A DNA stretch of 64,000 nt from assembly GCF_013315695.1 (NCBI RefSeq), contig NZ_CP054353.1. One strand, 5' to 3'. Shown piece after piece: positions 30,486 through 64,000 of this stretch. The notes under the pieces are model-generated. The model saw nothing but the letters and a program-made list of their open reading frames with translations. It did no database searches and was not told where the DNA came from. This DNA comes from Escherichia coli. Its GTDB lineage: Bacteria > Pseudomonadota > Gammaproteobacteria > Enterobacterales > Enterobacteriaceae. The position numbers and the translations under genes are program-made. How positions within the stretch are numbered: position 1 is the stretch's first letter; every line of letters begins with the position of its first letter.

Positions 30486-31307
30486 GTGTTCCCCGCGCCA
30501 GCGGGGATAAACCAAATACAGGACCAATATTTTGATATATATAATCGTGTTCCCCGCGCCAGCGGGGATAAACCGGTGATTCTGGCAATACTGGCACTTC
30601 CGTTTTGGTGTTCCCCGCGCCAGCGGGGATAAACCGGGCGGTTAACTGGTCCTGTGCGGATATGCGCTGTGTTCCCCGCGCCAGCGGGGATAAACCGATG
30701 TGGAAAGGCGAGCTGAGGGTGGCCTACGCGTGTTCCCCGCGCCAGCGGGGATAAACCGGCTGAGGAAATTGCTAAACCCTCGCAGGATCCGTGTTCCCCG
30801 CGCCAGCGGGGATAAACCGTTGCCGGTACAGCTCCAGCATTAATCCCCACCGTGTTCCCCGCGCCAGCGGGGATAAACCGTTGCGACGTGGTGCGCGCTC
30901 GAGCACAACGTTGTGTTCCCCGCGCCAGCGGGGATAAACCGATGTAAACCCCTCGCGCATCGAGTCAAATGTCGTGTTCCCCGCGCCAGCGGGGATAAAC
31001 CGCCACCTCAGCCTGCGCGCCCGCTGAATATTCCGTGTTCCCCGCTCCAGCGGGGATAAACCGGGACGCGTTCCATCAGGGCGGGTCCAGGGAATGTGTT
31101 CCCCGCGCCAGCGGGGATAAACCGCAGGCGGCGCAGTGGCGCATGAATCCGTTCGCGTGTTCCCCGCGCCAGCGGGGATAAACCGGAGTTTGTGAATTTA
31201 ACAGAATTCCGCGCCCGGTGTTCCCCGCGCCAGCGGGGATAAACCAGCCAATTGCCATATATGCCATCGCCAGCAGCCGTGTTCCCCGCGCCAGCGGGGA
31301 TAAACCA
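30486..31307 (+). CRISPR. Type I-E CRISPR array, 14 repeats / 13 spacers (distal array between queE and ygcE)
   Basis: 29-bp repeat GTGTTCCCCGCGCCAGCGGGGATAAACCG at exact 61-bp period from 30486 to 31279; 32-bp unique spacers; repeat 10 has GCTCC variant; repeats 1, 13, 14 end in A. Confidence 0.97.
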
Positions 31308-31760: not shown

Positions 31761-31898
31761 ATATTCCTTGTAAAAACAGGGATAAACCGAACTAGTTAAA
31801 GTTTTTATTATGTTCCCTGCATCAGCGGGGATAAACCGGACTTGTTATCATTTTTTAAGTTGTCGAACTTATGTTCCCCGCGTCAGCGGGGATAACCA
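31761..31898 (+). CRISPR. Degenerate CRISPR mini-array (3 decayed repeats)
   Basis: atattccttgtaaaaacagggataaaccg / atgttccctgcatcagcggggataaaccg / atgttccccgcgtcagcggggataacc; last two 61 bp apart; abuts ygcE 3' end. Confidence 0.7.
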
Positions 31899-31944
31899 TT
31901 CAGGTATGTTCAGGCCGGGCAGTTTCCCGCCCGGCCTTCCTCAC

Positions 31945-48008: not shown

Positions 48009-48157
48009 TGACAAAATATGCCCTTGTGGCAATCATAGTGCTGTGTTTTACAGTACTGGGATTCACGCTGATGGTAGGCGACTCGTTGTGTGAGTTGAGT
48101 ATCAGAGAACGTGGTATGGAGTTTAAGGCGGTTCTCGCTTACGAATCGAAGAAGTAG
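48005..48157 (+). CDS. Hok/Gef-family type I toxin (50 aa)
   Basis: [50 protein letters not shown]; single TM helix then conserved SLCE...AYES periplasmic motif; RBS agggagg 7 nt upstream; below 60-aa cutoff of ORF track. Confidence 0.8.
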
Positions 48158-48160
48158 CCA

Positions 48161-48225
48161 CCACGCGGGGGTAAAACCCCGCGTACTGAATTGTGATGGT
48201 TTGGTCTCCTGCACCCTTTTTTAAT
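48161..48225 (+). terminator. 3' structured region of the hok-like transcript
   Basis: GC hairpin acgcgggg-gtaaaa-ccccgcgt, then ggtctcctgcaccc + T6; 3' GCACCC could pair with upstream GGGUGC (47873-47878). Confidence 0.4.
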
Positions 48226-48351
48226 TTATATTGTTTATGTGAATATTATGCCTATGTTTATTATTCATATATATTACGGATGAAAATTATTTGATTATTC
48301 ATAATGTAAATATTTTATTGAACGATATATATCACAGATAATTTTTAATAT
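48226..48351 (+). promoter_or_regulatory. A/T-rich region upstream of cas3 (probable promoter/regulatory region)
   Basis: About 125 bp of >80% A+T immediately upstream of cas3 start; exact promoter not pinned. Confidence 0.4.
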
Positions 48352-51051
48352 ATGCGTAAATATCCTTTAAGTTTACTGAAGGATAAAAATATTGTGACTT
48401 TTTTTGATTTCTGGGGAAAAACCCGACGCGGCGAGAAAGACGGGGGCGACGACTATCACCTTCTTTGCTGGCATTCGCTGGATGTAGCCGCGATGGGCTA
48501 TTTAATGGTTAAAAGCAATTGCTTCGGACTGGCTGACTATTTTCGTCAATTAGGTTTCGCTGACACGGAGCTGGCAGCACAATTTTTCGCCTGGCTGCTG
48601 TGCTGGCACGATATTGGAAAATTTGCCCGCTCTTTTCAGCAACTTTACCTGCACCCACAACTCAAGGTTCCGGAAGGCGCAAGAAAGAATTACGAAAAGA
48701 TCTCTCATTCAACGCTGGGCTACTGGTTGTGGAACCATTATTTAAGTGAATGTCAGGAGTTGCTTCCTTCATCTTCACTCTCTCCGCGCAAACTTAAACG
48801 GGTGATGGAGATGTGGATGCCCATGACTACCGGGCATCATGGTCGACCCCCTGAGCGTATGGATGAACTGGATAATTTTCTGCCTGAAGACAAAGGTGCC
48901 GCACGAGATTTTCTCCTTGCAATCAAGGTACTGTTTCCGCTCATAGAGATCCCCACATTCTGGGATGATGACGAGGGCGTTGAACTTATAAAACAACTTT
49001 CCTGGTATATCTCTGCAACCGTCGTACTTGCAGACTGGACGGGATCGTCAACGCGATATTTTCCACGCGTCGCACAGACAATGGATATTGAAGATTACTG
49101 GCAGAAAACTTTAGTTCAGGCTCAAAACGCCTTAACCGTCTTTCCTCCAAAAGCAGAAAGCGCGCCTTTCACCGGAATTAATACGCTGTTTCCTTTTATT
49201 GAGAATCCGACACCGCTACAGCAAAAGGTGCTGGATCTGGATATCAGCCAGCCGGGACCACAGTTATTTATTCTGGAGGATGTAACCGGCGCAGGTAAAA
49301 CAGAAGCGGCGCTTATCCTGGCGCACAGGTTGATGGCTGCGGGGAAAGCGCAGGGTTTGTTTTTTGGCCTGCCAACAATGGCAACGGCCAATGCCATGTA
49401 CGATCGACTGGTCAAAACCTGGCTTGCTTTCTATTCGCCAGAGTCCCGCCCCAGCCTGGTGCTGGCACACAGTGCCCGAACATTAATGGACCGCTTTAAT
49501 GAATCACTCTGGTCCGGTGATTTAGTCGGGTCAGAAGAACCGGATGAACAAACGTTCAGTCAGGGATGTGCGGCCTGGTTTGCCGACAGTAACAAGAAGG
49601 CGCTACTGGCTGAAATTGGCGTCGGCACGCTGGATCAGGCGATGATGGCTGTGATGCCGTTCAAACATAATAATCTGCGGCTTCTGGGACTGAGTAACAA
49701 AATCCTGCTGGCTGATGAGATCCATGCCTGTGACGCTTACATGTCATGCATTCTTGAAGGGCTGATCGAGCGGCAGGCGCGTGGCGGAAACAGCGTCATT
49801 TTGCTTTCTGCCACGTTATCTCAACAGCAGCGCGACAAACTCGTTGCTGCCTTTGCGCGTGGTATAGAGGGCCAGCAAGAAGCTCCGTTCCTGGAAAAGG
49901 ATGATTACCCCTGGCTGACGCACGTTACGAAATCCGATGTGCATTCACACCGGGTAGCGACGCGCAAAGACGTTGAGCGCAGCGTGAGTGTGGGTTGGCT
50001 TCATAGCGAACAAGAGTGTATTGCGCGTATCGAATCGGCGGTAAGTCAGGGGAAATGTATCGCCTGGATCCGAAATTCTGTCGATGACGCCATCCAGGTT
50101 CATCGTCAGTTACTTGCCCGCGGCGTCATTCCTGCTTCCAGCCTTTCACTTTTTCATAGCCGCTTTGCTTTTAGCGATCGCCAGCGAATTGAAACGGAGA
50201 CGCTGGCACGCTTTGGTAAAGAAGACTGTTCACAGCGTGCCGGAAAAGTCCTCATTTGTACTCAAGTCCTGGAGCAGAGCGTTGACTGCGACCTGGACGA
50301 AATGATTTCCGACCTTGCCCCTGTTGATTTACTGATCCAGCGAGCAGGGCGATTACAGCGACATATCCGCGATATGAATGGCCAGTTAAAGCGTGACGGT
50401 AAAGACGAGCGTCACCCTCCTGAATTGCTGATTCTGGCCCCCGTCTGGGACGACTCTCCGGGTGACGAATGGTTTGGCAGTGCCATGCGTAACAGTGCAT
50501 TTGTCTATCCCGATCATGGGCGAATCTGGCTGACGCAGCGTGTGCTGCGTGAGCAAGGTGCTATTCAGATGCCACACTCAGCCCGGCTTCTGATTGAATC
50601 AGTCTACGGTGAGGACGTAGTAATGCCGGAAGGGTTTGCCCGCAGCGAGCAGGAGCAAGTGGGCAAATATTACTGCGATCGCGCAATGGCTAAAAAGTTT
50701 GTACTGAACTTCAGGCCCGGCTATGCCGCCAATATCAACGATTACCTCCCGGAAAAACTGTCGACACGTCTGGCTGAAGAGTCTGTTTCCCTGTGGCTGG
50801 CTACCTGTATTGACGGTGTGGTGAAGCCTTATGCCACAGGTGCACACGCATGGGAAATGAGCGTTGTCAGAGTGCGCCGAAGCTGGTGGAAAAAACATCG
50901 GGATGAGTTTGCTTTACTGGAAGGGGATGCGTTCAGGCAGTGGTGCGTTGAACAGCGGCATGATCCGGAGATGGCAAACGTGATTTTAGTCACCGATGAC
51001 GAAAGTTGTGGGTATTCGGCTACGGAGGGATTGATTGGCAAGGTTGGTTGA
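48352..51051 (+). CDS. cas3: Cas3 HD-nuclease/helicase (type I signature protein)
   Basis: 899-aa ORF; HD motif LCWHDIGKF; helicase motif I TGAGKTEA, motif II DEIHA; position upstream of cse1; start codon uncertain. Confidence 0.9.
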   Translation: MRKYPLSLLKDKNIVTFFDFWGKTRRGEKDGGDDYHLLCWHSLDVAAMGYLMVKSNCFGLADYFRQLGFADTELAAQFFAWLLCWHDIGKFARSFQQLYLHPQLKVPEGARKNYEKISHSTLGYWLWNHYLSECQELLPSSSLSPRKLKRVMEMWMPMTTGHHGRPPERMDELDNFLPEDKGAARDFLLAIKVLFPLIEIPTFWDDDEGVELIKQLSWYISATVVLADWTGSSTRYFPRVAQTMDIEDYWQKTLVQAQNALTVFPPKAESAPFTGINTLFPFIENPTPLQQKVLDLDISQPGPQLFILEDVTGAGKTEAALILAHRLMAAGKAQGLFFGLPTMATANAMYDRLVKTWLAFYSPESRPSLVLAHSARTLMDRFNESLWSGDLVGSEEPDEQTFSQGCAAWFADSNKKALLAEIGVGTLDQAMMAVMPFKHNNLRLLGLSNKILLADEIHACDAYMSCILEGLIERQARGGNSVILLSATLSQQQRDKLVAAFARGIEGQQEAPFLEKDDYPWLTHVTKSDVHSHRVATRKDVERSVSVGWLHSEQECIARIESAVSQGKCIAWIRNSVDDAIQVHRQLLARGVIPASSLSLFHSRFAFSDRQRIETETLARFGKEDCSQRAGKVLICTQVLEQSVDCDLDEMISDLAPVDLLIQRAGRLQRHIRDMNGQLKRDGKDERHPPELLILAPVWDDSPGDEWFGSAMRNSAFVYPDHGRIWLTQRVLREQGAIQMPHSARLLIESVYGEDVVMPEGFARSEQEQVGKYYCDRAMAKKFVLNFRPGYAANINDYLPEKLSTRLAEESVSLWLATCIDGVVKPYATGAHAWEMSVVRVRRSWWKKHRDEFALLEGDAFRQWCVEQRHDPEMANVILVTDDESCGYSATEGLIGKVG

Positions 51052-51140
51052 GATGTCTGCGACAGGATTCTCTGAATAGTTGATACACAAAAAAGGATGG
51101 ACAACCGACCAGGGATGGTCTTTTTTACGAGAGGATGCGT

Positions 51141-52703
51141 ATGAACTCGTTTTCACTTCTGACAACCCCGTGGTTGCCTGTTCGTTTCAAAGACGGAACG
51201 ACAGGCAAGCTGGCATCAGTCGATCTGGCTGATGAGAATGTTGTCGATATCGCCGCACCGCGAGCAGATTTACAAGGTGCGGCCTGGCAGTTTTTGCTGG
51301 GACTACTACAAACCAGCTTCGCGCCAAAAGATCATCGTCGTTGGGATGATATCTGGGAAGACGGACTGGAAGCTGAAAAGCTACGAGAAGCATTGCTGTC
51401 TTTAGAACATGCTTTCCAGTTTGGGCCTGATTCATCTTCATTTATGCAGGATTTTGAGGCGCTCACGGGAGATAAAGTTCCGGTCGCTTCGCTACTGCCT
51501 GAGATTCCCGGCTCTCAAACGACGAAGTTTAATAAAGACCATTTTATCAAGCGGGGTGTAACGGAATATCTGTGCCCCCATTGCTTAGCATTGGCCTTGT
51601 TCTCTTTACAGTTGAATGCACCCGCGGGCGGCAAAGGCTATCGCACCGGTTTACGCGGCGGTGGGCCGATGACGACTCTCATTGAATTACAGGAATATCA
51701 GGGCAATCAACAAACACCCTTGTGGCGCAAACTGTGGCTCAACGTGATGCCGCAGGATGAAGCCGACTTACCGCTACCCAAAAAATTTGACGATCTGATT
51801 TTCCCCTGGCTAGGCCCGACGCGTACCAGCGAACTGGCCGGTGCGGTGGTAACCCATGATCAGGTCAATAAACTCCAGGCGTACTGGGGAATGCCGCGGC
51901 GTATACGTATTGATTTTAATACCACGACAGTCGGCAACTGCGATATTTGCGACGAGCAGAACGACGCGCTCCTGAGCCTGATGACGACCAAAAATTATGG
52001 TGCCAATTATGCCATGTGGCAGCATCCCTTAACGCCTTACCGTGTACCACTTAAAGAGGGTGGCGAGTTTTACTCCGTTAAACCACAACCGGGCGGTTTA
52101 ATCTGGCGCGACTGGTTAGGCCTTATCGAAACGGGTAAATCAGAAAACAATACGGAACTTCCCGCGCTGGTGGTGAAACTCTTTAATGCCAGCAGTCTGA
52201 AACAGGCAAAAGTGGGCCTATGGGGATTTGGTTATGATTTTGACAACATGAAAGCGCGCTGTTGGTACGAACACCATTTCCCGCTACTGCTCAATAAAAA
52301 AGAAGGCCAGATACCGAAGCTGCGGCTGGCTGCGCAAACGGCTTCACGGATTCTGAGTCTGTTACGGAGTGCATTGAAAGAAGCATGGTTCTCCGATCCA
52401 AAAGGTGCAAGGGGTGATTTCAGTTTTGTGGATATCGACTTCTGGAACAAAACTCAGCATCGCTTCCTGAGGTTAGTGCGCCAAATTGAAGAAGGTCAGG
52501 ATGCGGATGAATTACTCGGCAAATGGCAAAAGGAAATTTGGTTATTCGCGCGTCAGGATTTTGACGAGCGTGTATTCACTAATCCTTATGAGCCCGTTGA
52601 TTTGAAACGCGTCATGACCGCGCGCAAGAAATATTTTACAACATCGGCGGAGAAGCAAAGTGCTAAAGCCGCCAGGGAGAAAAAGCAGGAGGCTGCTGAA
52701 TGA
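51141..52703 (+). CDS. casA: Cascade large subunit Cse1 (CasA)
   Basis: About 520 aa; first gene of Cascade operon after cas3; RBS gagagga before ATG 51141 (alternative ATG 51135). Confidence 0.85.
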   Translation: MNSFSLLTTPWLPVRFKDGTTGKLASVDLADENVVDIAAPRADLQGAAWQFLLGLLQTSFAPKDHRRWDDIWEDGLEAEKLREALLSLEHAFQFGPDSSSFMQDFEALTGDKVPVASLLPEIPGSQTTKFNKDHFIKRGVTEYLCPHCLALALFSLQLNAPAGGKGYRTGLRGGGPMTTLIELQEYQGNQQTPLWRKLWLNVMPQDEADLPLPKKFDDLIFPWLGPTRTSELAGAVVTHDQVNKLQAYWGMPRRIRIDFNTTTVGNCDICDEQNDALLSLMTTKNYGANYAMWQHPLTPYRVPLKEGGEFYSVKPQPGGLIWRDWLGLIETGKSENNTELPALVVKLFNASSLKQAKVGLWGFGYDFDNMKARCWYEHHFPLLLNKKEGQIPKLRLAAQTASRILSLLRSALKEAWFSDPKGARGDFSFVDIDFWNKTQHRFLRLVRQIEEGQDADELLGKWQKEIWLFARQDFDERVFTNPYEPVDLKRVMTARKKYFTTSAEKQSAKAAREKKQEAAE

Positions 52704-53236
52704 GTATTGTAAAAGAGGAGCACAAAGCCACGCTGCGTAAATGGCACGAAGAGTTGCAGGAAAAACGCGGCAATCGTGCCAGTCTGCGGCGTAGCACAAC
52801 GGTTAATGATGTTTGTCTGTCAGAAGGTTTTCGTTCTCTGCTGATGCAGACCCACACGTTGTGGAAAATTGAATCACAGGAGTGGCGTTTTACCGCACTG
52901 GCGCTGGTTGCCGCCGTTGCCGCCAATGTAAAAGCCATTGATGAACGGCAGCCTTTTGCCGCGCAGTTGGCGGCGGTAATGTCTGAGGGGCGTTTTACTC
53001 GCCTGTCGGCAGTCAAAACGCCGGATGAATTACTGCGCCAGTTACGTCGCGCGGTCAAATTATTAAATGGTTCCGTCAATCTTATCTCTTTGGCAGACGA
53101 TATTTTCCGCTGGTGCCAGGAGAGTGACGACCTGCTCAATCATCACCGCCGCCAGCAGCGGCCAACAGAATTTATCCGTATCCGCTGGGCGCTGGAATAT
53201 TACCAGGCTGGCGACGCCGATAACGAACAAAATTAA
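52700..53236 (+). CDS. casB: Cascade small subunit Cse2 (CasB)
   Basis: 178 aa; ATGA overlap with casA stop; position between cse1 and cas7e. Confidence 0.8.
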   Translation: MSIVKEEHKATLRKWHEELQEKRGNRASLRRSTTVNDVCLSEGFRSLLMQTHTLWKIESQEWRFTALALVAAVAANVKAIDERQPFAAQLAAVMSEGRFTRLSAVKTPDELLRQLRRAVKLLNGSVNLISLADDIFRWCQESDDLLNHHRRQQRPTEFIRIRWALEYYQAGDADNEQN

Positions 53237-53250
53237 TAAAGGACTATCTC

Positions 53251-54306
53251 ATGACGACATTTATTCAGCTTCATTTGTTAACCGCTTACCCTGCTGCCAA
53301 CCTTAACCGTGATGACACCGGTGCGCCAAAAACTGTGGTACTGGGTGGAGCAACGCGTCTGCGCGTTTCCTCGCAAAGTCTGAAACGTGCGTGGCGCACT
53401 TCTGCACTTTTTGAACAGGCGCTGGCGGGCCATATTGGTATTCGTAGTGGGCGTATCGCGCGCGAGGCAGCAACTATCATGATTGAGAAAGGAATCGAAG
53501 AAAAAAAAGCCATCGAATGGGCGGCAGATATTGCCGATTATCTTGGTAAAGCCAAAAAAGACAAAAAACCAAAAGATCCGCTCACTAACGCTGAAACTGA
53601 ACAGCTCGTCCATATCAGCCCGGCAGAATTTGACGCCGTAAAAGCGCTGGCCCATCAACTGGCAGAAGAAAAGCGCGCGCCAAAAGAGGACGATCTCGCT
53701 TTGTTACGTAAAGATCGTATGGCGGTAGATATCGCCATGTTTGGTCGTATGCTGGCGAATAAACCCGAGTTTAATGTTGAAGCCGCCTGTCAGGTCGCGC
53801 ACGCGTTTGGTGTCAGTGAAACGATTGTCGAAGATGATTTTTTCACCGCCGTTGATGATTTGCGCCAGGCCTCTGAAGATGCTGGTGCAGGGCATCTTGG
53901 TGAAACTGGATTTGGTTCTGCGCTGTTCTACACCTATATCTGCATTGATAAAGATCTGCTGGTCGAAAACCTCGGCGGTGACGAAGCATTAGCTAATCAG
54001 ACCCTGCGCGCCTTTACGGAAGCAGCGTTTAAAGTTTCCCCAACCGGTAAACAAAACAGCTTTGCCAGCCGTGCCTACGCCTCCTGGGCGCTGGCAGAAA
54101 AAGGCACCGAACAACCGCGTTCTCTGGCGGCGGCTTTCTATGAACCCATTAATGGCACACGTCAGTTAGATGTGGCGGTGCAGCGTATTACAACGCTTCG
54201 CGAAAACATGAATACGGTTTACGAACAGAAGACCGAATGCGCAAGTTTTGACGTGATGAACAAACAGGGAAGCATGAAGGACGTGCTGGACTTTATCTGC
54301 GCGTAA
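53251..54306 (+). CDS. casC: Cascade backbone subunit Cas7e (CasC)
   Basis: 351 aa; N-terminus MTTFIQLHLLTAYPAANLNRDDTGAPK typical of Cas7e. Confidence 0.9.
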   Translation: MTTFIQLHLLTAYPAANLNRDDTGAPKTVVLGGATRLRVSSQSLKRAWRTSALFEQALAGHIGIRSGRIAREAATIMIEKGIEEKKAIEWAADIADYLGKAKKDKKPKDPLTNAETEQLVHISPAEFDAVKALAHQLAEEKRAPKEDDLALLRKDRMAVDIAMFGRMLANKPEFNVEAACQVAHAFGVSETIVEDDFFTAVDDLRQASEDAGAGHLGETGFGSALFYTYICIDKDLLVENLGGDEALANQTLRAFTEAAFKVSPTGKQNSFASRAYASWALAEKGTEQPRSLAAAFYEPINGTRQLDVAVQRITTLRENMNTVYEQKTECASFDVMNKQGSMKDVLDFICA

Positions 54307-54316
54307 GGGGCGGCTT

Positions 54317-55063
54317 ATGAGCCAATATCTGATTTTTCAGCTTCATGGGCCAATGGCATCCTGGGGCGTTGATGCACCCGGTGAGGTGCGTCATACCCAT
54401 GAACTGCCTTCGCGTTCAGCATTGCTGGGGCTGCTGGCTGCCGGGGTAGGGATACGGCGTGATGACACCGAATGCTTAAACGCGTTTAATCGCCACTATT
54501 CACTGGTGGTTTGCGCCAGCCGTAACCCGCGCTGGGCACGGGATTATCACACGGTCCAGATGCCAAAAGAGGTGCGTAAAGCGCGTTATTTCAGCCGTCG
54601 CGAAGAGTTGAGCGACCCTGATCTTCTAAGCGCGATTATCTCCCGGCGCGACTACTACACCGATGCCTGGTGGATGGTGGCCGTGGCAACAACAGCTGAT
54701 GCGCCTTACAGCCTCGAACAGTTGCAGGAAGGTTTACGCCATCCGGCTTTTCCGCTTTATCTGGGGCGAAAAAGCCATCCGCTGGCATTACCCCTTGCGC
54801 CGTTACTGCTTGAAGGTAACGCGTCTGATGCCTTACGTAACGCATACCAACAGTATCAGGATCGTTTCCACGAACTGAAAGTCTCACTCCCGAAACTTCA
54901 GGATGAATGCTGGTGGGAAGGGGAGCACGATGGCCTGGTCTCGAGCAAAATATTACGCCGCCGGGATGTTCCTTTAAATCGTCAGCAGTGGCTGTTTGGG
55001 GAACGCACCGTCAATCAGGGGCCGTGGCTCAGCAAGGAGGAACCATGTACCTCTCAAGAATAA
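54317..55063 (+). CDS. casD: Cascade subunit Cas5e (CasD)
   Basis: 248 aa; N-terminus MSQYLIFQLHGPMASWG...LLGLLAAGVGIRRDD typical of Cas5e. Confidence 0.9.
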   Translation: MSQYLIFQLHGPMASWGVDAPGEVRHTHELPSRSALLGLLAAGVGIRRDDTECLNAFNRHYSLVVCASRNPRWARDYHTVQMPKEVRKARYFSRREELSDPDLLSAIISRRDYYTDAWWMVAVATTADAPYSLEQLQEGLRHPAFPLYLGRKSHPLALPLAPLLLEGNASDALRNAYQQYQDRFHELKVSLPKLQDECWWEGEHDGLVSSKILRRRDVPLNRQQWLFGERTVNQGPWLSKEEPCTSQE

Positions 55064-55691
55064 CCTTACATACCGGTCAGCTTTCGCCTGCGCAGTTGCT
55101 GCATTTGGTGGATCGCGGTGAATATGTGATGCATCAGTGGCTGTGGGATCTTTTTCCTGGCGGCAAAGAAAGGCAATTTCTTTATCGTCGGGAAGAACTC
55201 CAGGGCGCGTTTCGCTTTTTTGTCCTGTCGCAGGAACGCCCGGCGGAAAGTGAAACGTTCACCATCGAATGCCGGTCATTTGCGCCTGAACTGCATACCG
55301 GACAATCCCTTTGTTTCAACCTGCGGGCGAATCCAACAGTCTGTAAAGCGGGTAAGCGCCACGATCTGCTGATGGAGGCGAAACGGCAGGTGAGGGGGCA
55401 GGCGGAAGGAAGAAATGTCTGGTTGCATCAACAACAGGCGGCGCTGGACTGGCTGGCAGCGCAGGGGGAGAGAAGCGGTTTTACACTGCTGGATACCTCG
55501 GTCGATGCCTACCGACAACAGCAACTGCGGCGGGAAAACTCCCGGCAACTGATCCAGTTCAGTAGCGTGGATTATACGGGGATGCTTACGGTCACCGATC
55601 CTGGGTTATTTCTGCAACGTCTGAGCCAGGGGTATGGCAAAAGCCGGGCGTTCGGTTGTGGTCTGATGCTGATCAAACCTGGAGCAGAGGC

Positions 55692-55695
<4 letters not shown>
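55045..55695 (+). CDS. casE: crRNA endoribonuclease Cas6e (CasE)
   Basis: 216 aa from MYLSRITLHTGQ after AGGAGG RBS; C-terminal Gly-rich loop GYGKSRAFGCGLM; overlaps casD 3' end. Confidence 0.85.
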
Positions 55696-56905
<1,210 letters not shown>

Positions 56906-57001
56906 GTTACCCGTTCTTTAAAAATAAGGAAAAGTTTGAATTTAGTTGGTAGATTGTTGTTGTGGAATAAAATTGTTTAAAAACAGATACGTATGCTTAG
57001 T
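56906..57001 (+). promoter_or_regulatory. CRISPR leader of cas-adjacent array
   Basis: A/T-rich 96 bp containing agttggtagattgttg motif shared with distal leader; directly precedes repeat 1. Confidence 0.6.
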
Positions 57002-57212
57002 GTGTTCCCCGCGCCAGCGGGGATAAACCGGCTGGGTACTAGCCAGGGTGAAAGGAAGTCACGTGTTCCCCGCGCCAGCGGGGATAAACCGTCGACAATG
57101 GATAAGTTGACTTCAGGTCTGGGGAGTTCCCCGCGCTAGCGGGAATAAACCGTGCAGTACGCCTGATGACAAACCAGGCATCGGGAGTTCCCCCGCGTCA
57201 GCGGGGAACTCC
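57002..57212 (+). CRISPR. Type I-E CRISPR array adjacent to cas2, 4 repeats / 3 spacers
   Basis: Repeats at 57002, 57063, 57124, 57185 (61-bp period); repeats 3 and 4 degenerate; spacers gctgggtactagccagggtgaaaggaagtcac, tcgacaatggataagttgacttcaggtctggg, tgcagtacgcctgatgacaaaccaggcatcgg. Confidence 0.9.
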
Positions 57213-57233
57213 CAGCTCCCATTTTCAAACCCA

Positions 57234-58271
57234 TCAAGACGCCTTCGCCAGCTCCTTCACCAGCGGTAGCATTATCCGCATAACGTCACGGCAGCGACGT
57301 TCTATTCTTCCAGGAAGCGCCTTATCAATATGCTGTTGATTATCAAGCCTTACATCATGCCAGCTATTTCCTGCAGGGAATGCGGTTGTTTTTGCGCGTT
57401 GCTGATAACCATCCTTATTCCCAAGATCCCAGTTAGTCGCTTCCACCGAAAGTACAGCAATGCCCGCTTTGTCGAATATTTCTGCGTCATTACAACACCC
57501 AGTGCCTTTCGGATAATTTTTATTCAAACCCGGATTGGTCGTTGCGGCAATTCCATGACTACGCGCAATTGCCAGCGCCCTGTCGCGCGTTAATTTCCTT
57601 ACTGCTTCAGGGGTTTTTACACCGCTGTTGAAATACAATTTATCGCCAACAATTAAGTTATCGAGATTAATCACCAGCAGTGTATTTTTCTTTTCGGAGT
57701 CACTCATCCGCTTGAGTAAATTCTCAGCGCCTAATTTCCCTTCCTCTTCGCCGCTGGTCGCCACAAATCGAATACCATACTCGGTAGGCGTATTTTTCAG
57801 GCGTTCTGCCAATTCCAGCATGACACCTAAACCTGCGGCGTTATCATCCATTCCTTGTAACGTCAGCCCGCCGAGATTGGCATCGGCGTCAGCATCGCTC
57901 AGCGGGGCGTAAGTATCCAGATGCGCCATAATGATGATCTGCTGCGGCGCTTTGCCTTCATGAGCGGCAATCACCGTACTTCCCGTCACGTTATGCCAGC
58001 TCTTGCGATTATCGCGGGCGGTATAAATATACCGACTATTAAATGTCCGAATATCACTGCGATAACCCATTTGCTGAAACTGTTGGCGAATATAATCGGC
58101 AGATAACATTTCTGCAGGAGTTCCGGTCATGCGTCCCGGAAAGAAAGTAGCAATATGTCGTGCCTGGGTATTAGCAAAATCGCCAGGTTTAGGTGACGAG
58201 GCGTGTACGGGGAGAATAAAGCATACGCCGAGCGCCAGGGCAGCGGTACGGTGGCGCAATGCGGAAAACAT
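57234..58271 (-). CDS. iap: Alkaline phosphatase isozyme conversion aminopeptidase (M28 family)
   Basis: 345-aa ORF with signal peptide, matching remembered Iap; convergent on CRISPR array end. Confidence 0.9.
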   Translation of the reverse strand: MFSALRHRTAALALGVCFILPVHASSPKPGDFANTQARHIATFFPGRMTGTPAEMLSADYIRQQFQQMGYRSDIRTFNSRYIYTARDNRKSWHNVTGSTVIAAHEGKAPQQIIIMAHLDTYAPLSDADADANLGGLTLQGMDDNAAGLGVMLELAERLKNTPTEYGIRFVATSGEEEGKLGAENLLKRMSDSEKKNTLLVINLDNLIVGDKLYFNSGVKTPEAVRKLTRDRALAIARSHGIAATTNPGLNKNYPKGTGCCNDAEIFDKAGIAVLSVEATNWDLGNKDGYQQRAKTTAFPAGNSWHDVRLDNQQHIDKALPGRIERRCRDVMRIMLPLVKELAKAS

Positions 58272-58522
58272 AGTGAGTCCTTAAATACCATGCAAATTTT
58301 TTTACCGCCATAGTATGAAACTGCCGCTGCGCTAAAACAATTTCAAATCTTCCTAAACGCCCGAAATCCGGTGCCTTAAGCACTTTTTGATATTAGCTTT
58401 GCCAAATCGTTATTCCGTTAAGGAACTACTCATTCTAATTGGTAATTTCATTCGTTCTCTTACGCTCCCTATAGTCGAAACATCTGATGGCAAGAAAATA
58501 GCGGTATTGCAAAGGAACGGTT

Positions 58523-59431
58523 ATGGATCAAAAACGACTTACTCACCTGCGGCAACTGGAGGCGGAAAGCATCCACATTATTCGCGAGGTGGCGGCAGAA
58601 TTCTCAAATCCGGTGATGCTCTACTCTATCGGTAAAGATTCCAGCGTCATGTTGCATCTGGCGCGCAAGGCGTTTTATCCAGGTACGCTGCCTTTCCCGT
58701 TGCTGCATGTCGATACCGGCTGGAAATTCCGCGAGATGTATGAGTTCCGCGATCGTACGGCGAAAGCCTACGGCTGCGAGCTGCTGGTGCATAAAAACCC
58801 GGAAGGCGTGGCGATGGGGATTAATCCATTCGTACACGGCAGCGCGAAACATACCGATATTATGAAAACTGAAGGCCTGAAACAGGCGCTGAACAAATAC
58901 GGTTTTGATGCCGCCTTCGGTGGTGCGCGCCGTGACGAAGAGAAATCCCGCGCTAAAGAGCGAATCTACTCTTTCCGTGACCGCTTCCATCGCTGGGATC
59001 CGAAAAATCAGCGCCCGGAGCTGTGGCACAACTACAACGGGCAAATTAACAAAGGCGAAAGCATCCGCGTCTTCCCGCTCTCTAACTGGACCGAGCAGGA
59101 TATCTGGCAATACATCTGGCTGGAAAATATCGACATTGTGCCGCTGTATCTCGCTGCGGAACGTCCGGTTCTGGAACGCGACGGTATGTTGATGATGATT
59201 GATGACAACCGTATCGACCTGCAACCGGGCGAAGTGATTAAAAAACGGATGGTGCGTTTCCGTACGCTGGGCTGCTGGCCGCTGACCGGTGCGGTGGAGT
59301 CAAATGCACAAACACTGCCGGAGATCATCGAAGAGATGCTGGTTTCCACCACCAGTGAACGTCAGGGCCGCGTGATTGACCGCGACCAGGCGGGGTCTAT
59401 GGAGCTGAAAAAACGTCAGGGGTATTTTTAA
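58523..59431 (+). CDS. cysD: Sulfate adenylyltransferase subunit 2
   Basis: 302 aa; PAPS-reductase-like fold motif SIGKDSSV. Confidence 0.95.
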
Positions 59432-59432
59432 G

Positions 59433-60860
59433 ATGAACACCGCACTTGCACAACAAATCGCCAATGAAGGCGGCGTCGAAGCCTGGATGATTGCGCAACA
59501 ACATAAAAGCCTGCTGCGTTTTCTGACCTGTGGTAGCGTCGATGACGGCAAAAGTACCCTGATTGGTCGCCTGCTGCACGATACCCGCCAAATCTACGAA
59601 GATCAGCTCTCATCGCTGCATAACGACAGTAAGCGTCACGGCACCCAGGGCGAAAAGCTGGATCTGGCGCTTCTGGTGGATGGTCTGCAAGCCGAGCGTG
59701 AACAGGGCATTACTATTGATGTGGCCTACCGCTATTTCTCTACCGAGAAGCGTAAATTTATTATCGCCGACACACCTGGGCACGAGCAGTACACCCGCAA
59801 TATGGCGACCGGCGCATCGACATGCGAACTGGCGATCTTACTGATCGACGCCCGTAAAGGCGTGCTCGATCAAACCCGTCGTCACAGTTTTATCTCCACA
59901 CTGTTGGGGATCAAACATCTGGTCGTGGCGATCAACAAAATGGATCTGGTGGATTACAGTGAAGAGACGTTCACCCGTATTCGTGAAGATTATCTGACTT
60001 TTGCCGGGCAGCTGCCGGGTAATCTGGATATCCGCTTTGTGCCGCTCTCTGCACTGGAAGGCGACAACGTGGCTTCGCAAAGTGAAAGTATGCCGTGGTA
60101 CAGCGGTCCGACACTGCTCGAAGTGCTGGAAACCGTGGAGATCCAGCGAGTGGTGGATGCCCAGCCAATGCGCTTCCCGGTGCAGTACGTTAATCGCCCG
60201 AATCTCGATTTTCGTGGCTACGCCGGAACGCTGGCATCCGGTCGCGTGGAAGTCGGGCAACGTGTCAAAGTGCTGCCCTCTGGTGTGGAATCAAACGTCG
60301 CGCGGATCGTGACCTTTGATGGCGATCGCGAAGAAGCCTTTGCCGGAGAAGCGATCACCCTGGTGCTGACGGATGAAATCGACATCAGCCGTGGCGATCT
60401 GCTGCTGGCGGCAGACGAAGCGTTACCGGCTGTGCAGAGCGCGTCGGTGGATGTGGTATGGATGGCGGAACAGCCGCTTTCCCCGGGCCAGAGTTACGAC
60501 ATCAAAATTGCCGGTAAGAAGACGCGTGCTCGTGTTGATGGCATTCGTTATCAGGTTGATATCAATAACCTTACCCAACGCGAAGTTGAAAACCTGCCGC
60601 TGAACGGCATCGGCCTGGTAGATCTCACCTTTGACGAGCCACTGGTGTTAGATCGTTATCAGCAAAACCCGGTTACCGGTGGGCTGATTTTTATCGATCG
60701 CCTGAGTAATGTGACCGTAGGTGCCGGTATGGTGCACGAACCAGTTAGCCAGGCAACTGCTGCACCATCTGAATTCAGTGCATTCGAACTGGAATTGAAT
60801 GCCCTGGTTCGCCGCCATTTCCCTCATTGGGGTGCGCGCGATTTACTGGGAGATAAATAA
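59433..60860 (+). CDS. cysN: Sulfate adenylyltransferase subunit 1 (GTPase)
   Basis: 475 aa; GTP-binding motifs [18 protein letters not shown]. Confidence 0.95.
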
Positions 60861-61465
60861 TGGCTCTGCATGACGAAAACGTCGTCTGGCATAGCCACCC
60901 AGTAACTCCGCAACAACGCGAACAGCACCACGGTCATCGTGGTGTTGTGCTGTGGTTTACCGGCCTCTCTGGTTCCGGTAAATCAACCGTCGCGGGGGCG
61001 CTGGAGGAGGCGTTACATAAACTTGGCGTCAGTACGTATCTGCTGGATGGCGACAATGTTCGCCACGGATTATGCAGCGATCTCGGTTTTAGCGATGCCG
61101 ATCGTAAAGAAAATATCCGTCGCGTCGGTGAAGTGGCGAATTTGATGGTTGAAGCCGGACTGGTGGTGCTGACCGCATTTATCTCGCCACACCGCGCCGA
61201 ACGCCAGATGGTTCGCGAACGCGTAGGAGAAGGGCGCTTTATCGAAGTGTTTGTCGATACACCGCTGGCGATTTGCGAAGCCCGCGATCCAAAAGGCTTA
61301 TATAAGAAAGCGCGTGCCGGTGAACTGCGCAACTTTACGGGAATAGATTCCGTTTACGAAGCGCCTGAATCGGCAGAAATTCATCTCAATGGTGAACAAT
61401 TAGTAACAAATTTGGTACAGCAATTATTAGATCTGTTGAGACAGAACGATATTATCAGATCCTGA
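60860..61465 (+). CDS. cysC: Adenylylsulfate (APS) kinase
   Basis: 201 aa; P-loop GLSGSGKST; start overlaps cysN stop. Confidence 0.95.
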
Positions 61466-61514
61466 GACACCACCGGGTTTCCATGCCCGGTTCGTCAAAG
61501 TAACAGGATCAAAT

Positions 61515-61838
61515 ATGCGTAATAGCCATAACATTACACTAACAAATAACGACAGCCTTACTGAGGATGAAGAAACCACATGGTCACTGCCTGGTGCCGT
61601 GGTCGGTTTTATCTCATGGTTATTTGCGCTGGCGATGCCGATGTTGATTTATGGCTCTAACACGCTGTTCTTCTTTATCTACACCTGGCCTTTCTTTCTG
61701 GCACTGATGCCTGTCGCGGTAGTGGTGGGGATTGCGCTGCATTCATTGATGGACGGAAAGCTACGCTACAGTATTGTTTTCACCCTGGTGACAGTAGGCA
61801 TTATGTTTGGCGCACTGTTTATGTGGCTACTGGGCTAA
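61515..61838 (+). CDS. ygbE: Small inner-membrane protein YgbE
   Basis: 107-aa ORF with three hydrophobic segments; conserved position between cysC and ftsB. Confidence 0.85.
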   Translation: MRNSHNITLTNNDSLTEDEETTWSLPGAVVGFISWLFALAMPMLIYGSNTLFFFIYTWPFFLALMPVAVVVGIALHSLMDGKLRYSIVFTLVTVGIMFGALFMWLLG

Positions 61839-62031
61839 TTTGTACTTTCTTGTCTCCTCTGTTCATAATTCAAACCGTAACTAATAATGAGATTATGTTC
61901 TGCACGCCCTGGGTATACGTAACAATGGACAAATGTGGTACATTTGCCCGCGTTGTCGCGGTATCCCCAACAGAGGATGTAGAGTCGTCTTCGGATGCAT
62001 GGGATGATGATGCCGTTTTTCAGGGGGCAGG

Positions 62032-62343
62032 ATGGGTAAACTAACGCTGCTGTTGCTGGCTATTCTGGTCTGGCTACAGTATTCGCTGTGGTTCGGTAAG
62101 AACGGTATACATGACTATACCCGCGTCAATGATGATGTGGCGGCACAGCAAGCTACAAACGCGAAACTTAAAGCGCGAAACGATCAACTTTTTGCCGAAA
62201 TTGACGATCTCAATGGCGGCCAGGAGGCGCTCGAAGAGCGTGCGCGTAATGAACTCAGCATGACCAGGCCGGGCGAAACTTTTTATCGTCTGGTGCCTGA
62301 CGCGTCGAAGCGCGCACAGTCTGCGGGGCAAAACAATCGATAA
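62032..62343 (+). CDS. ftsB: Cell division protein FtsB
   Basis: 103 aa; N-terminal TM helix then coiled coil. Confidence 0.9.
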
Positions 62344-62361
62344 ATCAGCCCAGGAATTAAC

Positions 62362-63072
62362 ATGGCAACCACTCATTTGGATGTTTGCGCCGTGGTTCCG
62401 GCGGCCGGATTTGGCCGTCGAATGCAAACGGAATGTCCTAAGCAATATCTCTCAATCGGTAATCAAACCATTCTTGAACACTCGGTGCATGCGCTGCTGG
62501 CGCATCCCCGGGTGAAACATGTCGTCATTGCCATAAGTCCTGGCGATAGCCGTTTTGCACAACTTCCTCTGGCGAATCATCCACAAATCACGGTTGTTGA
62601 TGGTGGTGAAGAGCGTGCCGATTCCGTGCTGGCAGGTCTGAAAGCCGCTGGCGACGCGCAGTGGGTATTGGTGCATGACGCCGCTCGTCCTTGTCTGCAT
62701 CAGGATGACCTCGCGCGATTGTTGGCGTTGAGCGAAACCAGCCGCACGGGGGGGATCCTCGCCGCACCAGTGCGCGATACGATGAAACGTGCCGAACCGG
62801 GCAAAAATGCCATTGCTCATACCGTTGATCGCAACGGCTTATGGCACGCGCTGACGCCGCAATTTTTCCCTCGTGAGCTGTTACATGACTGCCTGACGCG
62901 CGCTCTAAATGAAGGCGCTACCATTACCGACGAAGCCTCGGCGCTGGAATATTGCGGATTTCATCCGCAGTTGGTCGAAGGCCGCGCGGATAACATTAAA
63001 GTCACGCGCCCGGAAGATTTGGCACTGGCCGAGTTTTACCTCACCCGAACCATCCATCAGGAGAATACATAA
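62362..63072 (+). CDS. ispD: 2-C-methyl-D-erythritol 4-phosphate cytidylyltransferase
   Basis: 236 aa; N-terminal [11 protein letters not shown] nucleotide-binding motif. Confidence 0.95.
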
Positions 63073-63551
63073 TGCGAATTGGACACGGTTTTGACGTACA
63101 CGCCTTTGGCGGTGAAGGCCCAATTATCATTGGTGGCGTACGCATTCCTTACGAAAAAGGATTGCTGGCGCATTCTGATGGCGATGTGGCGCTCCATGCG
63201 TTGACCGATGCATTGCTTGGCGCGGCGGCGCTGGGGGATATCGGCAAACTGTTCCCGGATACCGATCCGGCATTTAAAGGTGCCGACAGCCGCGAGCTGC
63301 TACGCGAAGCCTGGCGTCGTATTCAGGCGAAGGGTTATACCCTTGGCAACGTCGATGTCACTATCATCGCTCAGGCACCGAAGATGTTGCCGCACATTCC
63401 ACAAATGCGCGTGTTTATTGCCGAAGATCTCGGCTGCCATATGGACGATGTTAACGTGAAAGCCACTACTACGGAAAAACTTGGATTTACCGGACGTGGG
63501 GAAGGGATTGCCTGTGAAGCGGTGGCGCTACTCATTAAGGCAACAAAATGA
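63072..63551 (+). CDS. ispF: 2-C-methyl-D-erythritol 2,4-cyclodiphosphate synthase
   Basis: 159 aa; [12 protein letters not shown] Zn-binding motif; start overlaps ispD stop. Confidence 0.95.
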
Positions 63552-64000
63552 TTGAGTTTGATAATCTCACTTACCTCCACGGTAAACCGCAAGGCACCGG
63601 GCTGCTGAAAGCCAATCCGGAAGACTTTGTGGTGGTGGAAGATTTGGGCTTTGAGCCTGATGGTGAAGGTGAGCATATTCTGGTTAGAATCCTCAAAAAC
63701 GGCTGCAATACCCGTTTTGTGGCGGATGCACTGGCGAAATTCCTGAAAATTCATTCCCGTGAAGTCAGCTTCGCTGGGCAAAAAGACAAACATGCTGTTA
63801 CGGAACAGTGGTTATGCGCTCGCGTGCCGGGCAAAGAGATGCCCGATCTGAGCGCCTTTCAACTGGAAGGCTGCCAGGTGCTGGAGTATGCGCGGCACAA
63901 GCGCAAGCTGCGTTTAGGCGCGCTGAAAGGTAACGCCTTTACCCTGGTTCTGCGCGAAGTGAGCAATCGCGATGACGTTGAACAACGTCTGATCGATATT
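63548..64000 (+). CDS. truD: tRNA pseudouridine13 synthase TruD (3'-truncated by window end)
   Basis: ATG overlapping ispF stop (ATGA); N-terminus [27 protein letters not shown]; runs off window end. Confidence 0.9.

What the first reader, a model, noticed from the sequence alone, without database searches (positions are those of the whole stretch)
56906..57233. Minimal cas-adjacent array (3 spacers) with decaying terminal repeats overlapping the iap 3' region
The array next to cas2 has only four repeats. The first two are the GTG-type repeat; the third has point changes (gcgcTagcgGGAAtaa) and the fourth is strongly degenerate (gagttcccccgcgtcagcggggaactcc). The array ends about 20 bp from the convergent iap stop. 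With a complete cas operon this could mean recent contraction or low adaptation at this leader, while the distal array holds 13 spacers.
Basis: seen in the sequence. Interest (0 to 1): 0.4.

Follow-up and report, generated by a model that had tools for sequence, protein, structure and literature searches.

The report
Short E. coli CRISPR array beside cas2
This is the ordinary cas-adjacent type I-E CRISPR array of an E. coli strain; it holds three old spacers because one repeat-spacer unit was recently lost, and its worn end repeats are inherited features seen in related strains and, for the last repeat, across the species.

Summary
Between the cas2 stop (56905) and the convergent iap stop (57234-57236) lie a 96-nt AT-rich leader, four repeats at a 61-nt period and three 32-nt spacers. 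R1 and R2 are perfect, R3 has three substitutions, and R4 is degenerate at its 3' end. R4 ends 20 nt before the iap stop and does not overlap the iap coding sequence.

This is the classical E. coli iap-cas array, next to an intact eight-gene type I-E operon of the non-K-12 variant.

- The nearest complete genome, MSB1_4I, is identical over 12.6 kb around the array and over the whole distal array. It differs only by one extra internal 61-bp unit (spacer Sx). The window allele is therefore a recent one-unit deletion.
- No spacer is unique to this strain.
- R3's mutations occur in all seven genomes that share this array end.
- R4 and the 20-nt trailer recur across the species, including K-12. They are old fixed features, not ongoing decay.
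- The leader is 96/96 identical to that of SMS-3-5, which has 22 repeats, so the leader is not defective.
- The distal array also varies only by internal losses.

All of this matches published E. coli CRISPR dynamics. Interest is low.

The parts
48352..56905 (+). Complete type I-E cas operon, non-K-12 variant. cas3 48352-51051, casA/cse1 51135-52703, casB 52700-53236, cas7e 53251-54306, cas5e 54317-55063, cas6e 55045-55695, cas1e 55692-56615, cas2e 56612-56905.
   Evidence: Open ORFs. Every product gives a full-length match above cutoff to an NCBIfam I-E family or Cas3 domain model. The DNA from 46825 on is identical to MSB1_4I, where PGAP annotates all eight genes as intact.
56906..57001 (+). 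CRISPR leader: 96 nt, 71.9% A+T. Contains a sigma-70-like site TTGGTA-16-TAAAAT at 56946-56973.
   Evidence: Composition. Promoter-like site (a consensus match only, and 2 sites were found against 1.3 expected). 96/96 identical to the leader of SMS-3-5, which heads a 22-repeat array. Identical in MS 21-1 and AF3.
57002..57030 (+). Repeat R1, consensus GTGTTCCCCGCGCCAGCGGGGATAAACCG.
   Evidence: Predicted RNA hairpin of 7 bp with a 4-nt loop, -15.2 kcal/mol.
57031..57062 (+). Spacer S1, GCTGGGTACTAGCCAGGGTGAAAGGAAGTCAC. It is leader-proximal here, but it is not new.
   Evidence: Present in the arrays of 5 complete genomes. In GF131 it lies beneath 7 newer spacers. No protospacer was found in phages, plasmids, E. 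coli genomes, IMG/VR or JGI metagenomes.
57063..57091 (+). Repeat R2, consensus. This is the junction left by the deletion of the Sx unit.
   Evidence: The alignment with AF3 shows exactly one 61-bp unit missing here.
57092..57123 (+). Spacer S2, TCGACAATGGATAAGTTGACTTCAGGTCTGGG. It targets SSU5/pHCM2/pMT1-type phage-plasmids.
   Evidence: 31/32 match in Salmonella plasmids such as pSA20094620.2 and 29/32 in phage SSU5, in the DUF6651 gene just upstream of the major capsid gene; 835 plasmid records matched the three-spacer query and every listed match lies within S2. The 5' flank is AGG in the plasmid and AAG in SSU5, both I-E type PAMs.
57124..57152 (+). Repeat R3, variant GAGTTCCCCGCGCTAGCGGGAATAAACCG (T2A, C14T in the loop, G21A at the base of the stem).
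   Evidence: Identical in all 7 related genomes. G21A alone is already present in 2020CK-00188. The predicted hairpin weakens to -10.6 kcal/mol.
57153..57184 (+). Spacer S3, TGCAGTACGCCTGATGACAAACCAGGCATCGG. It is the oldest, trailer-proximal spacer.
   Evidence: Found in 8 complete genomes, always at the trailer end. No protospacer found.
57185..57213 (+). Terminal degenerate repeat R4, GAGTTCCCCCGCGTCAGCGGGGAACTCCC. The hairpin-forming 5' two-thirds are kept, with one extra C. The 3' ATAAACCG is replaced by ACTCCC, which pairs with the 5' GGGAGT to give a long hairpin.
   Evidence: Alignment to the consensus. Fold of 57183-57216: -26.9 kcal/mol, z = -6.0. A homologous element occupies the same position in K-12, SMS-3-5 and TCM3e1.
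57214..57233 (+). 20-nt trailer, AGCTCCCATTTTCAAACCCA, between R4 and the iap stop codon.
   Evidence: Identical in K-12, SMS-3-5 and TCM3e1.
57234..58271 (-). iap (alkaline phosphatase isozyme conversion aminopeptidase), convergent with the array.
   Evidence: ORF. NF007568 match, 702 bits, positions 1-345 of 346. Annotated as iap in all related records.
30486..31307 (+). Distal array (queE/ygcF-ygcE locus): 14 repeats, 13 spacers, with its own leader upstream.
   Evidence: 100% identical in MSB1_4I. Relatives share the first and last spacers and differ by internal presence/absence.
31810..31899 (+). Two-repeat mini-array with one spacer, 502 bp downstream of the distal array.
   Evidence: It corresponds to the conserved ~0.5-kb interruption of CRISPR2 described in PMC2886076.

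Best explanation
The region is the cas-proximal CRISPR array of an Escherichia coli type I-E system of the non-K-12 cas variant. It sits at the same chromosomal site, between cas2 and iap, where CRISPR repeats were first seen in K-12.

The expected mechanism is inferred from the established I-E pathway. A leader promoter transcribes the array towards iap. Cas6e cuts each repeat at the 3' base of its hairpin. Each crRNA then carries an 8-nt AUAAACCG 5' handle, a 32-nt spacer and a 21-nt 3' hairpin, and loads into Cascade. Cascade recruits Cas3 to targets that have an AAG/AWG-type PAM.

S1 is flanked by two perfect repeats and should give a canonical crRNA. S2 and S3 depend on cleavage in R3, where G21A weakens the stem at the cut site. 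S3 takes its 3' hairpin from R4. In R4, the part that has drifted is exactly the 5'-handle segment that no downstream spacer needs.

The array is short for two reasons. It is an old, static relic with no spacer private to this strain. It has also just lost one internal repeat-spacer unit (Sx), by recombination or slippage between identical repeats. The altered R3 and the degenerate R4 were inherited from ancestors and are not decaying in this strain.

The lack of recent acquisition applies to both arrays of the lineage. It fits the known H-NS silencing of E. coli I-E systems rather than a faulty leader.
For: Array anatomy:
- Four repeats in a 61-nt register; 18 repeat matches in the window against 0 expected.
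- Eight intact I-E cas genes immediately upstream.
- Same synteny, terminal repeat and trailer as K-12.

Genuine acquisition with the right PAM:
- S2 matches SSU5-like phage-plasmids with AAG or AGG 5' of the protospacer.
- The lost spacer Sx matches prophage tail-chaperone genes 32/32 with an ATG PAM. This fits the CWT (AWG) motif reported for the non-K-12 variant (PMC3737337).

Deletion rather than stable ancestry:
- Window = S1,S2,S3.
- MSB1_4I, AF3, AF14 and AF10 = S1,Sx,S2,S3.
- MS 21-1 = Sx,S2,S3.
- GF131 = 7 newer spacers + S1,Sy,S2,S3.
- RMDEC465 = S2,S3.
- MSB1_4I shows 0 mismatches over 10,267 bp upstream and 2,402 bp downstream of the indel, and an identical distal array.

Inherited end repeats:
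- R3 is identical in all 7 relatives.
- R4 plus trailer is found in about 950 further genomes.

Leader not defective:
- 96/96 identity with the leader of SMS-3-5, which has 22 repeats.

Both arrays static:
- Distal arrays of relatives share the leader-end spacer d01 and the trailer-end spacer d13, and differ only internally.

Literature:
- Terminal repeats are almost always 3'-degenerate. Close strains have identical spacers apart from deletions and IS insertions. Inactive periods are associated with spacer loss (PMC2886076).
- H-NS silencing, with no activity detected under laboratory conditions (PMC5972030).
- iap-side arrays of 2-30 spacers in clinical E. coli (PMC12736100).
Against: - No expression or processing data exist. 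Whether R3 (G21A) and R4 are cut by Cas6e is inferred only from folding.
- S1 and S3 have no identifiable target.
- The direction of the Sx difference (deletion here, rather than an internal insertion in the others) rests on the rule of leader-end insertion and on parsimony over 8 genomes, not on a rooted genome phylogeny.
- The window comes from an assembly whose quality is unknown to me.
- The promoter-like site in the leader is only a consensus match at background frequency.
Confidence: 0.9

Rival explanations
1. Stable ancestry. The three-spacer array is the ancestral state of the lineage and the relatives have expanded, so no contraction occurred.
For: The array is short in all close relatives, at 3-4 spacers. 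E. coli arrays are known to be slow to change (PMC2886076).
Against: Sx lies internally, between S1 and S2, in four genomes. It is also present without S1 in MS 21-1. Gaining it would need a non-polar internal insertion of the same spacer. GF131 carries a different spacer, Sy, at the same internal position, which points to a longer ancestor that was thinned by losses. No other complete genome has the S1,S2,S3 allele.
Confidence: 0.06
2. A defect specific to this leader. The cas-proximal leader is poor at adaptation while the distal leader is proficient, which would explain 3 versus 13 spacers.
For: The spacer counts are unequal, 3 versus 13. In AF14 and AF10 the same leader is disrupted by ISKpn26.
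Against: The window's leader is intact and 96/96 identical to that of SMS-3-5, which heads 22 repeats. GF131 added 7 spacers above S1 at this same array end. Distal arrays in the lineage share their leader-end spacers and differ only internally, so the distal leader shows no recent intake either.
Confidence: 0.05
3. Assembly artefact. The missing 61-bp unit is a collapse of near-identical repeats during assembly, and the strain really has S1,Sx,S2,S3.
For: It is the only difference from MSB1_4I in about 14 kb. The window also shows a junction at an IS4 copy that could be either a true inversion or an assembly switch.
Against: Spacers are unique 32-mers separated by repeats of only 29 nt. Ordinary reads span them, and assemblers rarely drop a unique spacer. 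The deletion is exactly one unit in register, as expected for a biological repeat-mediated loss.
Confidence: 0.04
4. R4 is kept for a job of its own. Its extended hairpin at the CRISPR/iap boundary acts as a transcript-end or insulating structure for the convergent pre-crRNA and iap transcripts, rather than being only a decayed repeat. This would be compatible with the main explanation.
For: The 3' end of R4 pairs with its 5' end to give a 13-bp bulged hairpin: -26.9 kcal/mol, z = -6.0, with no shuffle folding as well. The outer GGAGTT/AACTCC pairing and the position 20 nt from the iap stop are retained in K-12 and SMS-3-5 although the inner sequence differs.
Against: No U-tract follows the hairpin on either strand, and the terminator scan found no site there. 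TCM3e1 has an uncompensated T-to-C change in the outer stem. In 2020CK-00188 most of R4 is deleted. No covariation is seen in the few variants examined.
Confidence: 0.15

Closest known systems
E. coli K-12 iap-cas2 array (CRISPR1 of Touchon & Rocha; CRISPR2.1 of Diez-Villasenor et al.; the repeats of Ishino et al. 1987)
   Same: Same chromosomal site between cas2 and iap. Same 29-nt repeat family and 61-nt period. Repeats become mutated towards the trailer. A homologous terminal degenerate repeat is followed by the identical 20-nt trailer up to the iap stop.
   Different: K-12 has 13 regular repeats plus the degenerate terminal one, GAG-type repeats, entirely different spacers, a diverged leader and the K-12 cas variant. 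The window has 3 regular repeats plus the degenerate terminal one, GTG-type repeats and the non-K-12 cas variant. For example, Cse1 is 522 aa and reaches only 104.7 bits against a 576-bit cutoff on the K-12-type model NF007247, while scoring 607 bits on TIGR02547.
The four-spacer allele of E. coli MSB1_4I, AF3, AF14 and AF10
   Same: Identical leader, S1, S2, R3, S3, R4, trailer, cas genes and flanks. For MSB1_4I there are 0 mismatches outside the indel over 12.6 kb, and the distal array is identical.
   Different: Those genomes keep spacer Sx and one more repeat between S1 and S2. AF14 and AF10 also carry ISKpn26 in the leader.
Non-K-12 (O157:H7-type, 'var. B-8552') type I-E CRISPR-Cas variant of E. 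coli
   Same: Gene order cas3-casA-casB-cas7-cas5-cas6-cas1-cas2 (PMC12736100). The protospacer motifs found for lineage spacers (AAG/AGG for S2, ATG for Sx) fit the CWT/AWG acquisition motif reported for this variant (PMC3737337).
   Different: Nothing distinctive was found. This is one more allele of that variant.

Membership tests
Type I-E CRISPR array (E. coli iap-cas locus) | Direct repeats of about 29 nt with a palindromic core, matching the E. coli I-E consensus | tested here: met
   R1 and R2 match 29/29, R3 26/29, R4 22-23/29 with one insertion. R1 folds into a hairpin of 7 bp with a 4-nt loop.
Type I-E CRISPR array (E. coli iap-cas locus) | Regular spacing with unique spacers of about 32 nt | tested here: met
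   All start-to-start spacings are 61 nt. The three spacers are 32 nt each and unrelated to one another.
Type I-E CRISPR array (E. coli iap-cas locus) | AT-rich leader on the upstream side, next to cas1-cas2 | tested here: met
   The leader is 96 nt and 71.9% A+T, against 48.9% for the window as a whole. It starts right after the cas2 stop. It is identical to the leader of a 22-repeat array in SMS-3-5.
Type I-E CRISPR array (E. coli iap-cas locus) | Cognate cas gene set (cas3, cse1, cse2, cas7e, cas5e, cas6e, cas1e, cas2e) | tested here: met
   All eight ORFs give full-length matches above the curated cutoffs of the I-E family or Cas3 domain models.
Type I-E CRISPR array (E. coli iap-cas locus) | Spacers derived from mobile elements, with a I-E PAM 5' of the protospacer | tested here: met
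   Met for S2: SSU5-like phage-plasmids, with AAG or AGG. No target was found for S1 or S3. The lineage spacer Sx has 32/32 prophage matches with ATG.
Type I-E CRISPR array (E. coli iap-cas locus) | Polarised history: older spacers shared at the trailer end, variation towards the leader or by unit loss | tested here: met
   S3 occurs in 8 genomes, S2-S3 in 7 and S1 in 5. GF131 adds 7 spacers on the leader side. The differences between genomes are whole 61-bp units.
Type I-E CRISPR array (E. coli iap-cas locus) | Transcription from the leader and Cas6e processing into 61-nt crRNAs | not testable with these tools
   The only evidence is a consensus promoter-like site at 56946-56973 and predicted hairpins.
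Rfam CRISPR direct-repeat families | Match at the gathering score to a curated CRISPR-DR covariance model | tested here: not met
   The Rfam gathering-threshold scan of the whole window returned rRNA, tRNA, RyfD, sok and other families, but no CRISPR-DR family for either array. This does not bear on identity, because the undisputed 14-repeat distal array is not reported either.
Intrinsic (Rho-independent) terminator, considered for R4 | GC-rich hairpin followed directly by a U-tract | tested here: not met
   The hairpin is present, at -26.9 kcal/mol. No T-run follows it on either strand, and the scan reports no site at 57183-57233.

The most novel reading that the evidence does not exclude
The loss of spacer Sx was selected rather than neutral. 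Sx matches a tail-assembly-chaperone gene of prophages (one examined carries holin, tape-measure and baseplate J/gp47 genes) perfectly, 32/32, with a functional ATG PAM, in seven other E. coli genomes. The five complete genomes that retain Sx show no such protospacer. If the window strain acquired that prophage, deleting Sx would remove a self-targeting spacer. The 61-bp loss in a near-clonal background would then be a natural example of escape from autoimmunity in a supposedly silent I-E system. A second, independent possibility is that the R4 hairpin serves as a boundary element between the array and iap.
Probability: 0.1. Interest if true: 0.4.

Novelty: already known. Interest (0 to 1): 0.12.

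Why it matters
It matters little beyond bookkeeping. The region is a textbook E. coli type I-E array. Its behaviour has already been described for Escherichia and Salmonella: old spacers shared within a lineage, change by loss of whole units, a 3'-degenerate terminal repeat, and no recent uptake.

The one modestly useful point is that the window strain and MSB1_4I form a near-isogenic pair that differs by a single repeat-spacer unit. Such a pair could calibrate spacer-loss rates. With the full genome, it could also test whether the loss was driven by acquisition of the prophage that Sx targets.

Tried and rejected
- Rfam at gathering threshold found no CRISPR-DR family for either array. This is uninformative.
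- The terminator scan found nothing at R4 or the trailer, so R4 is not a canonical intrinsic terminator.
- Exact searches for S1 in JGI metagenomes, and for S1, S2 and S3 in IMG/VR, returned nothing.
- A blastn search with S1 and S3 against E. coli genomes found only array copies and no protospacers.
- Only S2 found targets in the phage and plasmid collections.
- A scan of species-representative genomes with a degenerate trailer/iap-end pattern was meant to test genus-wide conservation of R4. It returned a single contig labelled as a Bacillota MAG, which I did not examine further, so that comparison failed.
- Reading the array as overlapping the iap coding sequence was rejected: there is a 20-nt gap.
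- Reading R3 and R4 as strain-specific decay was rejected on comparative grounds.

Full report
**1. What is in the sequence**

The interval 56906-57233 is exactly the non-coding gap between the cas2 stop and the stop codon of the convergent iap gene. It contains the following parts.
- A 96-nt leader with 71.9% A+T.
- R1 (57002-57030) and R2 (57063-57091), both GTGTTCCCCGCGCCAGCGGGGATAAACCG.
- R3 (57124-57152), GAGTTCCCCGCGCTAGCGGGAATAAACCG, with three substitutions.
- R4 (57185-57213), GAGTTCCCCCGCGTCAGCGGGGAACTCCC.

All repeats are in a strict 61-nt register and are separated by three unrelated 32-nt spacers. R4 keeps 22-23 of the 29 consensus positions and has one inserted C. Its divergence is concentrated in the last ~7 nt. 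No other 30-mer in the window outside the two arrays aligns to the consensus as well. The repeat motif occurs 18 times in the window against 0 in shuffles. R4 ends 20 nt before the iap stop (TCA on the plus strand at 57234-57236), so the array does not overlap the iap coding sequence.

**2. Context**

Eight open reading frames lie immediately upstream: cas3, casA, casB, cas7e, cas5e, cas6e, cas1e and cas2e. Each gives a full-length match above cutoff to an NCBIfam type I-E family or Cas3 domain model. Their low scores on the K-12-specific models (NF007248, NF007247) place them in the non-K-12 sequence variant described in the literature (PMC12736100, PMC3737337). iap, cysD and cysN follow on the other side. 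This is the classical E. coli iap-cas locus.

A two-repeat mini-array follows it after a 502-bp gap. Touchon and Rocha describe this layout as a conserved ~0.5-kb interruption of CRISPR2 (PMC2886076).

**3. Relatives**

Window 44000-64000 is 99.8-99.9% identical to the four best-matching complete E. coli genomes: MSB1_4I, AF3, AF14 and MS 21-1. Five of the 5426 genomes are at 99% identity or above. The next-best listed genomes are at 98.2-98.6%.

The module S2-R3-S3-R4 occurs in 7 of the 5426 genomes. S1 occurs in 5 and S3 in 8. The parsed arrays are:

| Genome | Array | Notes |
|---|---|---|
| Window | S1,S2,S3 | |
| MSB1_4I, AF3 | S1,Sx,S2,S3 | |
| AF14, AF10 | S1,Sx,S2,S3 | ISKpn26 inserted in the leader |
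| MS 21-1 | Sx,S2,S3 | |
| GF131 | seven further spacers, then S1,Sy,S2,S3 | cas genes deleted |
| RMDEC465 | S2,S3 | cas genes deleted |
| 2020CK-00188 | eleven unrelated spacers, then S3 (1 mismatch) | cas genes deleted |

No complete genome has the window's allele.

**4. Direction and age of the difference**

MSB1_4I has zero mismatches with the window over 46825-57091 (10,267 bp) and over 57063-59464 (2,402 bp). Its distal array region is 1651/1651 identical. The only difference is one 61-bp repeat-plus-Sx unit.

New spacers are added at the leader end. Sx is internal, and it occurs in five genomes including one without S1. GF131 has another spacer, Sy, in the same slot. The parsimonious history is a longer ancestral array thinned by unit losses, with the window allele arising from the MSB1_4I type by one recent repeat-mediated deletion. 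The lineage's array was already short.

**5. The 'decaying' repeats are inherited**

R3 with its three changes is identical in all seven relatives. G21A alone is already present in the more distant 2020CK-00188.

R4 and the 20-nt trailer match about 950 further genomes. K-12 MG1655 has GAGTTCCCCCGCCTCTGCGGTAGAACTCC followed by the identical trailer at the same distance from iap, and SMS-3-5 has a similar element. K-12's own last repeats also carry 2-3 substitutions. A terminal repeat degenerate at its 3' end is a documented general property (PMC2886076).

Functionally, the retained 5' two-thirds of R4 is the part that would form the 3' hairpin of the last crRNA. The drifted 3' segment is the 5' handle of a crRNA that does not exist. 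This functional reading is inference.

**6. Is this leader weak?**

The 96-nt leader is 96/96 identical to that of SMS-3-5, which heads 22 repeats. GF131 added seven spacers above S1. So the leader type is competent.

The distal arrays of the window, AF3, MS 21-1 and AF14 all begin with spacer d01 and end with d13, and they differ by internal presence/absence. The distal leader therefore shows no recent intake either.

The picture is of a system that has been quiescent in this lineage at both arrays. This fits H-NS silencing and the failure to detect I-E activity in the laboratory (PMC5972030). It also fits the published view that inactive periods are accompanied by spacer loss, and that close strains differ only by deletions and IS insertions (PMC2886076). 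Three spacers is at the low end of the reported range for the iap-side array, 2-30 (PMC12736100), but inside it.

**7. Spacer targets**

S2 matches SSU5/pHCM2/pMT1-type phage-plasmids, in the DUF6651 gene upstream of the major capsid gene. It matches 31/32 in several Salmonella plasmids and 29/32 in SSU5; 835 plasmid records matched the three-spacer query, and every listed match lies within S2. The protospacer is preceded by AGG or AAG.

The lost spacer Sx matches a prophage tail-assembly-chaperone gene 32/32 in six E. coli genomes, with a seventh near-identical match, and the one protospacer examined is preceded by ATG. This agrees with the CWT/AWG motif of the non-K-12 variant (PMC3737337).

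S1 and S3 have no detectable source.

**8. Structure predictions**

| Element | Predicted fold | Energy |
|---|---|---|
| R1 | canonical hairpin | -15.2 kcal/mol |
| R3 | stem weakened by G21A | -10.6 kcal/mol |
| R4 plus two upstream G | 13-bp bulged hairpin | -26.9 kcal/mol, z = -6.0 |
| K-12 counterpart of R4 | keeps the outer GGAGTTC/GAACTCC pairing | -17.4 kcal/mol |

No U-tract follows the R4 hairpin and no terminator-like site was called there. One relative has an uncompensated stem change and another has deleted most of R4. A separate function for R4 therefore remains a low-probability side hypothesis.

**9. Verdict**

This is a genuine but entirely ordinary type I-E array. 'Recent contraction' is supported by one unit. 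'Decaying repeats', 'overlap with iap' and a leader-specific adaptation deficit are not supported.

Novelty: already known. Interest: low.

The most novel reading still open is that the Sx loss was selected because the strain acquired the prophage Sx targets. That cannot be tested from 64 kb, and the window itself holds no Sx protospacer.

Noticed in passing
window 21530-28263 (junction at about 26830-26917): The window is collinear with MSB1_4I only from 26830 onward. To the left of an IS4 copy (26917-28263) it carries bamD, rluD, yfiH, clpB, RyfD and an rRNA operon, where MSB1_4I has eno, pyrG and mazG. MSB1_4I has the identical bamD-IS4 junction about 188 kb away on the opposite strand. The window therefore shows an inversion between two inverted IS4 copies (or an assembly switch across IS4). 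The whole CRISPR-cas region lies inside the inverted segment.
   Followed up: partly
L004 666-1646 and L005 666-1646 (AF14, AF10); corresponds to window about 56946-56949: Two close relatives carry an IS5-like ISKpn26 inserted in the CRISPR leader. The insertion lies at the promoter-like TTGGTA, about 50 nt upstream of R1. Their array content (S1,Sx,S2,S3) is unchanged.
   Followed up: partly
window 30486-31307 and loci L014, L015, L016: The distal arrays of four near-relatives form a mosaic of at least 28 distinct spacers. All share the first spacer (d01) and the last (d13). This implies a much longer ancestral array eroded by independent internal deletions.
   Followed up: yes
window 31810-31899: A two-repeat, one-spacer mini-array with ATG-type repeats lies 502 bp downstream of the distal array. 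A leader-like fragment (gtttggtagatttt) lies at about 30320, upstream of the true distal leader.
   Followed up: partly
window 57183-57216: The terminal degenerate repeat forms a long bulged hairpin of -26.9 kcal/mol, because its 3' end (AACTCCC) is complementary to its 5' end (GGGAGTT). The outer pairing is also present in K-12 and SMS-3-5.
   Followed up: partly
L020 3001-3032 (E. coli 40EC prophage): The spacer that the window has lost (Sx) has perfect protospacers with an ATG PAM in a prophage tail-assembly-chaperone gene, in seven E. coli genomes. None of the five Sx-bearing complete genomes shows such a protospacer.
   Followed up: partly
L003, L007, L011, L013 (GF131, RMDEC465, 2020CK-00188, TCM3e1): In four genomes a truncated cas3 pseudogene lies upstream of the array and none of the other cas genes is annotated. 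In RMDEC465 the remnant ends 2 nt before the first repeat; in TCM3e1 its annotated end overlaps the first repeat; in GF131 and 2020CK-00188 200-490 bp separate them. These are large deletions that remove casA through cas2, and in GF131, RMDEC465 and TCM3e1 also the leader. In 2020CK-00188 most of R4 is deleted as well, apparently between two TCCC microhomologies.
   Followed up: partly
L017 (SMS-3-5 array, read as reverse complement): The 18 leader-side repeats and the last regular repeat of SMS-3-5 carry a C9T change (GTGTTCCCTGCG...), which converts a stem C-G pair to U-G. Three repeats near the trailer keep the consensus. This is a visible trace of new repeats being copied from the leader-proximal repeat.
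   Followed up: no
window 47863-48020: An Rfam sok antitoxin RNA match (111 bits) lies between cysH and cas3. Relatives annotate a Hok/Gef toxin gene there, so a hok/sok module sits directly upstream of the cas3 promoter region.
   Followed up: no
L018 264-297: The only species-representative contig that matched the E. coli iap-end/trailer pattern is a 4.5-kb contig labelled as a Bacillota MAG. This may be Escherichia contamination of that bin, but the contig was not examined.
   Followed up: no
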